DNA of 64,000 nt, taken from contig NC_043006.1 in NCBI RefSeq assembly GCF_006345805.1, positions 11,904,001-11,968,000 on the forward strand. The letters are read 5' to 3'. A program made the position numbers and the translations under genes. Positions 5,917-64,000 of this stretch are shown one piece after another. Under the pieces are notes generated by a model, which saw nothing but the letters and a program-made list of their open reading frames with translations, searched no databases and was not told the origin of the DNA. How positions within the stretch are numbered: the stretch's first letter is position 1; the number at the start of each line of letters is the position of its first letter. Source of the DNA: Octopus sinensis. Taxonomy: Eukaryota.

Positions 5917-6397
5917 CTATCTATCTATCTATCTATCTATCTATTATAATCTATTTCTGCATGTATGTATATATATATATATATTATATATATATATATG
6001 TAAATATATATAAATGCATGCGCATATCTGCATGTGCGAGCCCGCATGTTTGTGAATGTTTGAATATAAAAGTATATGCTTAATGGTAGATCAATATTCT
6101 TGATATTTCTTCAGTCATGAAAATATGAAATTTTCTTTCGTTACTACTCTTTATATACTTCTATATTTCAGTTTATATTTCGGCTTGGAATAATTTCATT
6201 TTGCCTCATCACTATTGATATATTGTTGTTGCATAGCAAGCTTCAATGCTTATACATAGAAATTTGCGAGGATCAATGAAGAAAATGTCAAATTGCTTCC
6301 AGTGAATATTATTGATATTATTTACCTTATATTTTAAAGGTTTTTCTTTGTTAAATAGCTCTTCGATATGCATATATCCTTGTAGTTTTCGATTTGA

Positions 6398-24532: not shown

Positions 24533-24533
24533 T

Positions 24534-24926
24534 GGAGTGGATGTGTGGTAAGTAGCTTCTCTACCAACCACATGGTTCCGGGTTCAGTCCCACTGCGTGG
24601 CACATTCCACAAACGTCTACTATAACCTCCGGCCGACCAAAGCCTTGTGAGCGGATTTGGTAGACAGAAACTGAAAGAAGACCGTCGTATATATGTATAT
24701 ATATGTGTGTGTGCGTGTGTATGTTTGTGTGTGTCTGTGTTTGTCCCCCTACCATCGTTTGACAACCGATGCTTGTGTGTTTACGTCTCCGTAACTTCGC
24801 GGTTCGGCAAAATAGACCGATAGAATAAGTACTAGGCTTACAAAGAATAAGTCCTGGAGTCCCAGGACTAAAGGCGGTCCTCCAACATGGACGCAGTCAA
24901 ATAAATGACTGAAACAAGTATAAGAA
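24534..24926 (+). mobile_element. SINE family S copy
   Basis: Same head, body and tail as the other S copies. Confidence 0.9.
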
Positions 24927-24940
24927 TATATATATATATC

Positions 24941-24974
<34 letters not shown>

Positions 24975-25414
24975 CACATAAGGAATCCACTTATAGAGAT
25001 TCTACACGCTAGAAAGAACAGCTAGGTTCTATAACCACAAAAAATTAAATGATTAAATACAGTTTTGGGATAATTTTCGATTAAAATTTGGCGGTTATTA
25101 TTATAGCCAGTGAAGGACTGCCACTGCGCACTAAAATTTGAAAAGGTAGTTCGTATAAGCACGAGACAAGTAGTTTTGTTTGTCTCGTGTATATATGTTT
25201 AACCCTAGGTTGGAACTGCTGAAGAAGATCAGACCTAGTGAGTTCTTGACTCGCTAAAAGAAGATCAGAAACCAATTGGTCCAGGAATCTAGACGGCAAA
25301 TGTTTTTCAGTTCCAAATTTATTCCTGTCGAATTCTATCCCCAATTTTTGTTGTTATAGAACCTAGCTGTTCTTTCCAGCGTGTAGAATCGCTATCAGTG
25401 GATTCTTTATGTGT
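24975..25414. mobile_element. Fold-back element with about 70-bp terminal inverted repeats and a central hammerhead-like motif
   Basis: ACACATAAGGAATCCACTTATAGAGATTCTACACGCTAGAAAGAACAGCTAGGTTCTATAAC.. mirrors ..GTTATAGAACCTAGCTGTTCTTTCCAGCGTGTAGAATCGCTATCAGTGGATTCTTTATGTGT. Confidence 0.8.
25216..25284 (+). ncRNA. Candidate type-I hammerhead ribozyme (extended stem II, palindromic stem III)
   Basis: CTG-CTGAAGA-A-GATC...(TAGTGAGT/ACTCGCTA hairpin)...GATC-A-GAA-ACCAATTGGT-C-CAG: core CUGANGA and GAAA, GUC cleavage triplet, stem I CTG/CAG. Confidence 0.6.
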
Positions 25415-26087
25415 TTAAACATACACTATATCGTATGACTAATATATAGTCTTTTTGACTAAATTTGATTACACGTTAGACCACTGGAAATGTAAATTTT
25501 AATTAATTTCCATTTCCCTTTGATATGATATGATATATATATATATTATATACTTTGATACTTTGATAGGTTTCGGCCATTATTGGCCCAGGCCATGTCT
25601 AGCTTAATAGTACCACCTGGGTGCTATATATATATATATATATATATATATTGTATACCTTCCAAACTATCTATCTATCTGTCTTTGTCTCTCTTTCTCT
25701 CTCTCTCTCTATTTATCTATCTATCTATTTACCTAGCTAACAGTTGTACGTACTGTTTGTTTGATGGCTGAATAGCCTCTGCTCAGGAATATGTCTTTAA
25801 CTGACCTTCACGTCGAAAACCGAACGATAACATGAAAAAAGTCATCGGAAGGACACTCACTTTTGGCGAACCGGAACTAACATCACTGATGCATAAAATA
25901 CCCTATAGATAATGCAGTTTCCTCCTTAGTCGTACAACAGGAGATATTACTTACATACGGTTTTCTCTTCAAAAAGAACGTAAGTGACGTCAAAAAAAAT
26001 TCAAAGTGGACTGTATTAATGTTCATATATACGTAGCCATGTTTACTTACGCATCCATACGCACATTCACCTGTGCATATATATATA

Positions 26088-53047: not shown

Positions 53048-53885
53048 TATTAATATATCGAACATAGAAAAATATAAGGATATTAAAAGTATGTATAGAT
53101 ATCAATATATAAATATGAGTGTAGAAACATAGTGATAATATACTGAAATATAAGAACGTTTTTAAAGCATTTCAAAAGATAGTCAAAAGTTCATAATAAG
53201 CGTCTAATAATGTTTTTTGTTACTATTTTAGATGATAATATGCACTGAATGCATATCTACCGTGAATATCATATGTCTCCTGACGAAGGAGACATCCTCC
53301 GAAAATGGATTTCAAGATCCATTTATCATCCGGAAGAATAAATCCCAGAAACGGCTATCGGAATATTATCACCTAAAATTGTAACCCGAAACCTTATTAG
53401 ACGCCTATAATTAACTTTTGACTATTTTTTTCAAATCCTTTAAAAACGTTCTTTTACAATATTTTTTTCTACTCTAACCACAAGGCTCAGATCGAGCCCG
53501 GTACGAACCTGGTATTTAATTAATCGACCCCGAAAGGATGAAGAACATAGTCGACCTCGGCGGAATTTGAACTCAGAGCATAAAGACAGACGAAATACCG
53601 CTAAGCATTTCGCCCGGCGTGCAAACGTTTCTTATTTCCTTATTGCCTACATGGGGATAAACATAGAGGGGATAAACAAGGACAGACCGGCGCCAGTGCG
53701 GAACTGGTACTTAAATTATCGACCCGGAAAGGATGAAAGGCAAAGTCGACCTCGGAGGAATTTGAACTCACAACGTAACGCAGACGAAATACCGCTAAGC
53801 ATTTATCCCGTCGCGCTAACGTTTCTGCCAGCTCACCGCCTTTTATCTTTTATTATTTTATCACTATGTTCGATATATTAATATA
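53048..53885. mobile_element. Fold-back element with a central hammerhead-like loop; right arm interrupted by two tandem Nin-like SINEs (about 53462-53842)
   Basis: Arm pairs: GAACGTTTTTAAAG..AGTCAAAAGTT..GCGTCTAATAA..TACTATTTTAGATGATAATAT with ATATTATCACCTAAAATTGTA..TTATTAGACGC..AACTTTTGACT..CTTTAAAAACGTTC; TATTAATATATCGAACATAG with CTATGTTCGATATATTAATA. Confidence 0.8.
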
Positions 53886-54078: not shown

Positions 54079-54636
54079 ATATTTGTTATCCTGAGAATAA
54101 GGTCAGATGCCTTATATCTGAGATGAACTATAAGAATCGTACTATTCCAGTCCCAAATGACATTTAGAATCGCAATGTAAAAATATATGAATAAATATCG
54201 GAACAAATAGAGTTATTCTAATTTGAAAATGTTATTTCACATCTTGAATACACTAAAATTCCTTTTACACAGCCACACATTCATTACAACTGATAAAGTA
54301 TTTTTAGATAATGAGAAATGGTGTTTGTTATTATTATTATTATCGGTATTAGTATTTCCCGTGGAATTACCTTATTTCTTTGTAATGTTTGTATTATATT
54401 TGGATATTCGATTCCAATGTTTATGGAGAATCGTCCAAGTGTCCCCATTAAGCATGAGTTGTTACTAATTTCGGAAGTATTAAAATACTAATTTTAAATG
54501 TAATTTTAAAATTCATTAAAAAAATATTCATCGGATAATTTGGAAAACCGAAAAAAAATATTCATAATAAAAACGAAAGAAAATAACATTATGAACTACA
54601 AAAAGATAAAAAAAAATAAAAATGGTCTTAACTCAC

Positions 54637-55116
54637 ATCACTTGTGCCTGAGCCAAACAGTAGCAAGTCAAAAGGAATGGCAGCAATAGCATCAATAAGG
54701 AACCATCCTTTCACATAGTGTTTGGCAATTAACTGAGGATCACTGGCCACTTCACCATTTTGAAGGAATGTAGTTCGAAAGTTAATAAGAATGTCAGCTA
54801 TGAACATAATGTCAACAAGGAGGTCGATTATCACCAGGGGATCCGCCTTGCTTGTCTCGGCGTTTTTCAGGCGCGTCGCAGCATCCCTGTTTAGCTTCAT
54901 TCGGATTTCGTCTTCATTTAGAAGGAAGGCCGCTGAATAGGGAGTAAACACGGCTGTGTACAGAACTAGCAGCAGGATTATCCAATCCCAAACGGCTTTG
55001 AACGGAGAATAGTGGAGGATTATGAACTTCATTTGTGTCGACTGTTGACGTTTGCTTGGTTCCGGTTCTACTAAACTTCGGGACTCTTCATCACTTTTAT
55101 CTTGTTTGTTGGATTC
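54637..55116 (-). CDS. KCNH: Internal coding exon (160 codons) of an ERG-subfamily (KCNH2/6/7-like) voltage-gated potassium channel: N-linker plus S1-S3
   Basis: Translation ESNKQ...[38 protein letters not shown]...[25 protein letters not shown]...[31 protein letters not shown] matches the ERG S1-S3 signature ([39 protein letters not shown]). Acceptor is a pyrimidine tract + cccacag (AG at 55118-55117); donor is GTGAGT (54636-54631). Both are phase 0, equivalent to human KCNH2 exon 6. Confidence 0.95.
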
Positions 55117-55742
55117 CTGTGGGATATAAAATGGAAAAAGTAAGAAATTGGCAAAAAAGTAAGAAAATGGAAAATATAAGAAAATGAAAAAAAAGTAAGA
55201 GATTCACTCCAACTGTTTCAGATGCATTTTTATTCATGAAAAGATCAATTACATTAGAAAAAACAAAAGAAGTACCCATTTTCGTCGGAAGAATTTTAAA
55301 TTTAAATCTAAAATTTAACATTTAACATTTGGACCATTAAGTATATATTTTGACTCCCACATCTCAAGGATGACCAAAAGAGTTTATGTACGATTGTACA
55401 TATAGATATATATTTATATTCGATGAGAATATGGATTTGTTCATGCGCTTGTGTATGTATTTTCAAGGACAATTCTGCATGTATACATATGTGCGTAAGT
55501 GTCAATATATATACCGCTGATGCATATTGGCATAGAATTTTTTTTCTTTTGTCCTTATTTATAATTGTTTATAATTTTCACCTTTAAAGGTATTTTAATA
55601 TGCTGCCACTTTGATGAAATTCTTTTTGGAAGAAAATTTGTTATGCTATATTCCAAGTATATATATATATATATATATATATATAGGTGTATATATATAT
55701 ATACATATATATATATGTATATGTATATATATATATGTTATG

Positions 55743-63928: not shown

Positions 63929-63974
63929 GACACCTGATGAAAGCTGGAGGGTATATCAGCCGAAACGTTGTGTT
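63929..63974 (+). ncRNA. Candidate minimal type-I hammerhead ribozyme (Penelope-like-element type)
   Basis: GACAC-CTGATGA-AA-GCTG-GAGGGTATAT-CAGC-C-GAAAC-GTT-GTGTT: intact CUGAUGA/GAAA core, stem I GACAC/GTGTT, stem II GCTG/CAGC, palindromic ACGT stem III, GUU site. Confidence 0.7.
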
Positions 63975-64000
63975 AACAACAAGCCAGATGAGGACAGATA

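What the first reader, a model, noticed from the sequence alone, without database searches (positions are those of the whole stretch)
24975..25414. ORF-less fold-back element with a hammerhead ribozyme in its central loop
Seen: about 70-bp terminal inverted repeats, starting next to a (TA)n tract, enclose CTG-CTGAAGA-AGATC-[hairpin]-GATCA-GAA-ACCAATTGGT-C-CAG. This has the full hammerhead core, a GUC site and a self-complementary stem III. Established: minimal type-I hammerheads with palindromic stem III occur in the terminal repeats of Penelope-like elements (PLEs) and in retrozymes, and can cleave as dimers. Inference: this is a small non-coding, self-cleaving, fold-back mobile RNA rather than an ordinary MITE. 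Its transcript would be a long hairpin with a ribozyme at the tip. I do not know of a description of this architecture, but I cannot search for one.
Basis: partly seen in the sequence, partly recalled or inferred. Interest (0 to 1): 0.75.

Follow-up and report, generated by a model that had tools for sequence, protein, structure and literature searches.

The report
Octopus Penelope-parasite with atypical hammerhead ribozyme
This is an old copy of a common, protein-free jumping repeat in an octopus genome that carries a real but unusual self-cutting-RNA motif and was likely pasted in by a Penelope-type enzyme; its hairpin shape is a by-product of this one insertion, and elements of this kind are already known.

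Summary
The motif and the inverted arms are present, but the arms are not terminal repeats. The element runs on to about 25533, and the left arm is a locus-specific inverted copy of an internal stretch. The family is a 479-506 bp ORF-less unit with roughly 750 ribozyme-bearing copies (estimate). Across 144 loci it shows the published Penelope-like (PLE) footprint: scattered 5' ends, partial head-to-tail tandems (50 of 144), 5' inversions of variable length (63-67 of 144; 3' only 1), two fixed 3' ends (113 of 144) and (TA)n targets (105 of 144). The type I hammerhead behaves as a selected structure in 133 copies: N7 is free, pair 3:8 is C-G, U.G or U-A (125 of 131), and stem II covaries. But 10.1:11.1 is mostly A.A or C.A, never G-C as a clade, so cleavage is doubtful and untested. 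One locus joins the element 5'-to-5' to an autonomous PLE, a candidate mobiliser. Verdict: a new, aged member of the non-LTR retrozyme / non-autonomous PLE kind.

The parts
24953..24974 (.). (TA)n tract, left side of the target
   Evidence: the left arm merges into it
24965..25046 (-). Locus-specific 5' inverted arm: reverse copy of monomer positions ~302-383, its outer end at the family's first fixed 3' terminus
   Evidence: within the clearly aligned part it differs from the right arm at 5 substitutions and 1 indel over about 72 nt
25049..25534 (+). Main body: about one full monomer of the family, ORF-less, ending at the second fixed 3' terminus
   Evidence: longest ATG ORF in two reference monomers 52 and 97 aa; folds at z=-4.4 without the arm
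25216..25284 (+). Type I hammerhead motif (stem I 25216-18/25282-84; core 25219-25 and 25268-71; predicted cut after C25281)
   Evidence: covariation
25226..25267 (+). Branched stem II: A.A mismatch at 10.1:11.1 (25226/25267), 4 bp GAUC/GAUC, inner 9-bp hairpin 25236-25256
25271..25280 (+). Palindromic stem III (3 bp + 4-nt loop as a monomer; 10-bp duplex as a dimer, -13 kcal/mol predicted)
25343..25423 (+).
25534..25552 (.). (TA)n tract, right side of the target

Best explanation
It is one old, roughly unit-length copy of a ~500-bp protein-free retroelement family with a hammerhead motif, likely copied into (TA)n microsatellites by a borrowed Penelope-type reverse transcriptase/endonuclease. 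Shown: family membership, tandem unit, two fixed 3' ends, TA targets, 5' truncation, 5' inversions, covariation of the hammerhead. Inferred: (1) tandem loci are transcribed into more-than-unit RNA; (2) two hammerheads pair through the palindromic stem III and may cut weakly or with protein help, giving unit RNA that could be circularised; (3) a PLE protein nicks (TA)n and starts reverse transcription at one of two internal TA-like sites about 100 nt apart, copying an uncut multimer or a circle through the ribozyme site and past the unit junction; (4) the other target strand primes a second cDNA at the same two sites, and the two truncated cDNAs are joined 5'-to-5', which makes the inverted arm. 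In this copy the long cDNA began at site 2 and the short one at site 1. The copy lies antisense in a 112-kb intron of a KCNH7-like channel gene and is most likely inert.
For: 1337 first-look candidates, 40 scored; most match only query 75-440. 390 exact 17-mers against 0 controls. Of 144 loci: 5' inversion 63, 3' inversion 1, 3' end at two sites 113, TA after the end 105, longer than one unit 50, 5' starts spread over the whole unit. With a refined rule 67 inversions; 43 of 67 have their outer end at the same two sites, with TA outside in 33 of those 43 against 3 of the other 24. L205 joins a family fragment without a gap, 5'-to-5', to a truncated RT + GIY-YIG-like element with its own hammerhead, each outer end in TA. 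In 133 copies: 3:8 is C-G 72, U.G 32, U-A 21, C.A 5, G.G 1; N7 is A/G/U/C 78/31/13/10; 10.2:11.2 G-C 85 and A-U 25; 10.5:11.5 U-A 80 and C-G 45; 10.6:11.6 U-A 75 and A-U 27. All 6 clade-level changes at 3:8 keep a pair; a stem I insertion on one side goes with G on the other in 11 of 11. The published PLE footprint matches.
Against: No autonomous PLE shares sequence with the monomer (PLE-A; PLE-B). The chimera is 1 case among 57 loci with neither a self-inversion nor a 5' TA tract, and 0 of 30 PLE-B loci held the family. 10.1:11.1 pairs in only 14 of 130 copies (A.A 67, C.A 48); 13 copies also have A.C at 10.2:11.2; 32 have U3.G8. Such clades spread, so strict selection for catalysis is not shown. 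Invariance of 10 core columns against 50 of 206 variable columns is only P=0.058. The hammerhead fold is not the predicted minimum: +6.2 kcal/mol in this element, family median +5.7 in 63 copies. Copies are related, so pair counts are not independent events.
Confidence: 0.85

Rival explanations
1. Same element, but the hammerhead no longer cuts. It is kept as a folded binding or dimerisation scaffold, and copies are made from uncut tandem transcripts, never from circles. This rivals step 2 only.
For: Mismatch at 10.1:11.1 in 116 of 130 copies; clades with U3.G8 or a second mismatch spread. 5' ends do not pile up at the cut site (none of 9 inspected starts exactly there). In a Poseidon PLE, hammerhead mutants did not affect insertion in vitro (PMC11167929).
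Against: Repeated U.G to U-A restoration at 3:8, a pair that forms in the active fold, and free variation at N7. An axolotl retrozyme with a U.U mismatch at the base of stem II does cleave (PMC7229834).
Confidence: 0.4
2. The sequences are detached pseudo-LTRs or 3' ends of an autonomous PLE whose coding copies I did not find.
For: Same footprint and same hammerhead architecture as the autonomous PLEs of this genome (long branched stem II, palindromic stem III). Genome searches score only 40 candidates each.
Against: Past the 3' terminus the sequence returns to unit position 1 in the tandem loci instead of entering an ORF. In PLE-B it runs on into other sequence. No locus has a colinear RT/EN upstream in the same orientation abutting the unit.
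Confidence: 0.1
3. One reading: a fold-back RNA element with constant ~70-bp TIRs and a ribozyme at the hairpin tip; or a MITE.
For: 79-nt arms, z=-14 fold, TA flanks.
Against: 77 of 144 loci have no inversion; inversion lengths run from 25 to 426 nt; the right arm is internal; 5' ends are scattered and tandems are common.
Confidence: 0.03

Closest known systems
Animal non-LTR retrozymes (Cervera and de la Pena 2020, PMC7229834; Li, Clavereau and Pollet 2026, 10.64898/2026.07.22.740005)
   Same: ORF-less, low-GC tandem unit with one type I hammerhead per unit; PLEs proposed as mobilisers.
   Different: Unit of 479-506 bp is above the 150-450 bp quoted; loci are mostly 0.4-1.7 units (longest seen about 2.4) rather than arrays; core is non-canonical; cleavage and circular RNA untested here.
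EN+ Penelope-like element insertions (Craig et al. 2021, PMC8557442; Arkhipova et al. 2013, PMC3846280; Frangieh et al. 2024, PMC11167929)
   Same: 5' truncation, partial tandems, inverted 5' copy, two 3' termini (tail), microsatellite/AT-rich targets, hammerhead in the repeat.
   Different: No ORF; the tail is about 100 nt rather than 30-40; no sequence identity to the two autonomous PLEs examined.
PLE hammerhead variants (Cervera and de la Pena 2014, PMC4209133; Perreault et al. 2011, PMC3088659)
   Same: Type I, 4-5 bp stem I, palindromic stem III, extra base after A9, U3-A8 covariation already reported.
   Different: An almost invariant A before G12 (129 of 133) makes an A.A, C.A or U-A position at the base of stem II; the passages read report G-C or U.U there. 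C-G, U.G and U-A at 3:8 coexist within one family.

Membership tests
Type I hammerhead ribozyme | Core C3 U4 G5 A6 N7 G8 A9 / G12 A13 A14 / A15.1-U16.1 / H17 | tested here: met
   Present in the window copy; each of these columns >=123 of 133 constant except 3, 7 and 8, which covary or vary as expected
Type I hammerhead ribozyme | Stems I-III with compensatory changes | tested here: met
   Stem II G-C/A-U, U-A/C-G, U-A/A-U; stem I extension 11 of 11; stem III near invariant and so uninformative
Type I hammerhead ribozyme | Paired 10.1-11.1 (usually G-C) | tested here: not met
   14 of 130 paired; A.A 67, C.A 48, U-A 11; no Rfam hammerhead hit
Type I hammerhead ribozyme | Self-cleavage after H17 | not testable with these tools
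   Folding only: hammerhead state +6.2 kcal/mol in this element
Non-LTR retrozyme | ORF-less head-to-tail units with one hammerhead each | tested here: met
   50 of 144 loci exceed one unit; ORFs <=97 aa; two hammerheads in tandem in e.g. L014, L035, L049, L066, L087. The window copy itself has one
Non-LTR retrozyme | Unit-length linear and circular RNA | tested here: inconclusive
   Only contigs of runs guessed to be RNA; they cannot show strand, ends or circles
PLE-mobilised element | 5' truncation, partial tandem, 5' inverted copy | tested here: met
PLE-mobilised element | Two alternative 3' termini (tail) and microsatellite target | tested here: met
   113 of 144 at two sites; TA follows in 105 of 144
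PLE-mobilised element | Sequence shared with an autonomous partner | tested here: inconclusive
   None with PLE-A or with the part of PLE-B held; one 5'-to-5' chimera with PLE-B; other PLE families not surveyed
Autonomous PLE | RT + GIY-YIG ORF between the repeats | tested here: not met
MITE / fold-back DNA transposon | Constant TIRs at both ends, fixed TSD, uniform length | tested here: not met
   a TSD cannot be read inside TA tracts

The most novel reading that the evidence does not exclude
A retrozyme lineage whose ribozyme has shifted to a new core (fixed A at 11.1 with A/C/U opposite) and has walked C3-G8 to U3.G8 to U3-A8 while spreading, i.e. a protein-assisted or dimer-rescued hammerhead; and whose two-ended insertions include a chimera that names the Penelope enzyme (PLE-B) that copies it.
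Probability: 0.25. Interest if true: 0.6.

Novelty: new member of a known kind. Interest (0 to 1): 0.33.

Why it matters
Which enzyme moves animal retrozymes, and whether their ribozyme must cut, are open questions in the papers read (PMC7229834, 10.64898/2026.07.22.740005, PMC11167929). This family offers a natural allelic series of hammerhead cores to assay and one chimeric insertion that points to a testable RT partner. It also warns that PLE-type 5' inversions can be mistaken for MITE TIRs. The single copy in the window is old and probably has no function.

Tried and rejected
Rfam scan: no hammerhead model among 36 weak hits. Expression: no RNA holder listed; contigs of 4 of 20 runs carry family pieces but show no strand, ends or circles. 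Pile-up of 5' ends at the cut site: not seen. A-to-I edits written back: no strand bias (A>G 69, T>C 101, P=0.82). One template copied twice per locus: only 11 shared against 177 unshared private changes, uninformative at this age. PLE-A as partner: no similarity, different 3' end; Pfam found no RT or GIY-YIG family in its ORF, so its PLE identity rests on the pLTR-ORF-pLTR layout and recalled motifs. A family with the same stem III and a canonical core (105 hits against 31 controls) has no similarity to the monomer. The arm count of the inner hairpin was out of register and is discarded; one search replaces it. Microhomology at the chimera junction could not be checked: the 4 PLE-B copies fetched are truncated before it. 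The 12-nt direct repeat at 25222/25258 is not a TSD, since the two halves differ in other subfamilies. Lunse et al. (PMC5785218) is not held.

Full report
Observation. The arms are 79 nt and 90% complementary and the region folds at z=-14. Two qualifications apply. Positions 10.1 and 11.1 are both A, and stem I has 3 bp. Rfam gives no hammerhead hit at E<=10. A loose core pattern is found 8 times in the window against 8.9 expected, so one copy alone proves nothing.

Setting. An exon at 54634-55119 (minus strand) is 100% identical, over the 130 aa searched, to proteins named KCNH7-like from Octopus species. The next exon lies 112 kb further on. The element therefore sits in that intron, with its ribozyme strand antisense to the gene. 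The genome is G000, 2.7 Gb.

It is a family, and the arm is not part of the unit. The element gave 1337 first-look candidates; of 40 scored, most match only query 75-440. Alignment shows the family continuing to about 25534 and then re-entering at the sequence of 25049, a head-to-tail unit of 506 bp in L020 and 479 bp in a divergent subfamily, L055. A 17-mer from the ribozyme has 390 exact matches and 0 controls. 31 of 60 copies not selected by that pattern carry it, which suggests about 750 ribozyme-bearing copies (estimate). Nearest-neighbour identity has a median of 94% and is 93% for this copy, so the family is old.

Architecture. I mapped 144 loci, out of 150 fetched for the family; 5 re-fetched places and 1 segmental duplicate were dropped. 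The loci were chosen by similarity rank or by pattern and are not a random sample. 63 have an inverted fragment at the 5' end and 1 at the 3' end; 113 end at one of two sites about 100 nt apart; 105 run into (TA)n; 50 exceed one unit; 5' starts cover the whole unit. The window copy itself was binned outside the two sites because of a 22-bp indel, but it ends at site 2. A refined rule gives 67 inversions of 25-426 nt. 43 have their outer end at the same two sites, and TA lies outside 33 of these 43 against 3 of the other 24. The inverted arms thus look like second cDNAs primed from the opposite target strand (inference). Craig et al. describe 5' truncation, partial tandems, an inverted 5' copy, a tail and microsatellite bias for PLEs (PMC8557442, passages). 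Arkhipova et al. show inverted pLTRs and prefer self-priming on an antisense template (PMC3846280, passages), which remains an alternative. Frangieh et al. show two internal RT start sites, extension of both strands and a protein-assisted hammerhead not needed for insertion in vitro (PMC11167929, parts 1-2 of 4). Cervera and de la Pena note hammerhead pairs 100-700 bp apart on opposite strands (PMC4209133, parts 1-2 of 4).

The ribozyme. 141 copies spanning the motif were reduced to 133 (6 re-fetched, 1 segmental duplicate, 1 tandem unit identical in its centre). Many were selected by the 3' half of the motif, so its conservation was checked in 27 copies found with a query outside the motif: each position from G12 to C17 is constant in 24-27 of 27. 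For: N7 takes all four bases; 3:8 is C-G 72, U.G 32, U-A 21, C.A 5, G.G 1; stem II shows G-C/A-U, U-A/C-G and U-A/A-U swaps. On the tree all 6 changes at 3:8 on branches of 3 or more tips keep a pair, the stem I insertion goes with a G opposite in 11 of 11, and the inner hairpin shows GAGU/ACUC, GAAU/AUUU and GAGC/GCUU forms. Against: 10.1:11.1 pairs in 14 of 130; a 16-tip clade breaks 10.2:11.2 as well; 10.6:11.6 is A.A in 26; core invariance against background is P=0.058; and the hammerhead fold costs +6.2 kcal/mol here and a median +5.7 in 63 copies. U3-A8 and a U.U mismatch at 10.1:11.1 are known natural variants (PMC3088659, passages and section 8; PMC7229834, passages). That U3.G8 lowers activity is recalled, not from a call. 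I put the chance that founder RNAs cut at about 0.6, and that this copy does at about 0.3.

Partner. The genome has a young full-length element, PLE-A (895-aa ORF between hammerhead-bearing direct repeats in TA), with no similarity to the unit. At L205 a family fragment (unit 212-393, ending in TA) abuts, with no gap and in opposite orientation, a 5'-truncated second element, PLE-B. PLE-B is 32-36% identical to the PLE-A protein, has its own hammerhead, and ends in TA. Its copies are 88-95% alike, a similar age. This fits co-insertion by one enzyme, but it is 1 case among 57 loci without self-inversion or 5' TA, 0 of 30 PLE-B loci held the family, and no sequence is shared. Independent insertion plus deletion is not excluded. 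The RT and GIY-YIG labels rest on recalled motifs; Pfam gave none.

Known or new. It works like a non-LTR retrozyme moved by a PLE, the model of PMC7229834 and of 10.64898/2026.07.22.740005 (part 1 of 5 and passages); see also the review PMC6765202 (passages). It meets the structural tests, fails the paired 10.1-11.1 test, and cleavage and circles are untested. Five paper searches showed no description of this family or of an A.A/C.A core. Dfam, Repbase, Lunse et al. (title only) and all supplements were not seen. The scan's notes hold no match to this sequence but 59 findings on the same words, of which 8 were shown, all octopus retrozymes with PLE footprints. My reading was set before that look-up; one note prompted the RNA-editing test, which was negative.

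Verdict. A real feature, misread in its architecture: a new, aged member of a known kind, with a variant core and one informative chimera. Interest 0.33.

Noticed in passing
window 54634-55119 (-): Exon of a KCNH7/ERG-like potassium channel; the rest of the window below it is part of a 112-kb intron.
   Followed up: yes
L205 (G000:C4:79315500-79322200), junction at 6001: Family fragment joined 5'-to-5' to a truncated autonomous PLE (PLE-B) with an asparagine-rich insert between RT and endonuclease and a canonical hammerhead 32 nt from its 3' end.
   Followed up: partly
L171:1480-5670: Full-length young PLE (PLE-A): 895-aa ORF, direct repeats with a canonical hammerhead, (TA)n on both sides; 17372 first-look candidates; Pfam does not recognise its domains.
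   Followed up: partly
L175-L204: A second repeat family with a canonical type I hammerhead (G10.1-C11.1, GUA site, long stem II) and the same 10-nt palindromic stem III; about two thirds of these 30 loci; no similarity to the unit.
   Followed up: partly
window 53280-53325 and 63930-63975 (+): Two further PLE-type hammerhead-like motifs.
   Followed up: no
window 24533-24920: A very common repeat, found beside many loci; recalled as an octopus SINE, not tested.
   Followed up: no
L184-L187 (G000:C2:91.75-91.77 Mb): Four near-identical (97-98%) copies of a >1.2-kb unit spaced 5-9 kb apart.
   Followed up: no
L012 and L019 (G000:C8, 160 kb apart): The same insertion with shared flanks: a segmental duplication.
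   Followed up: no
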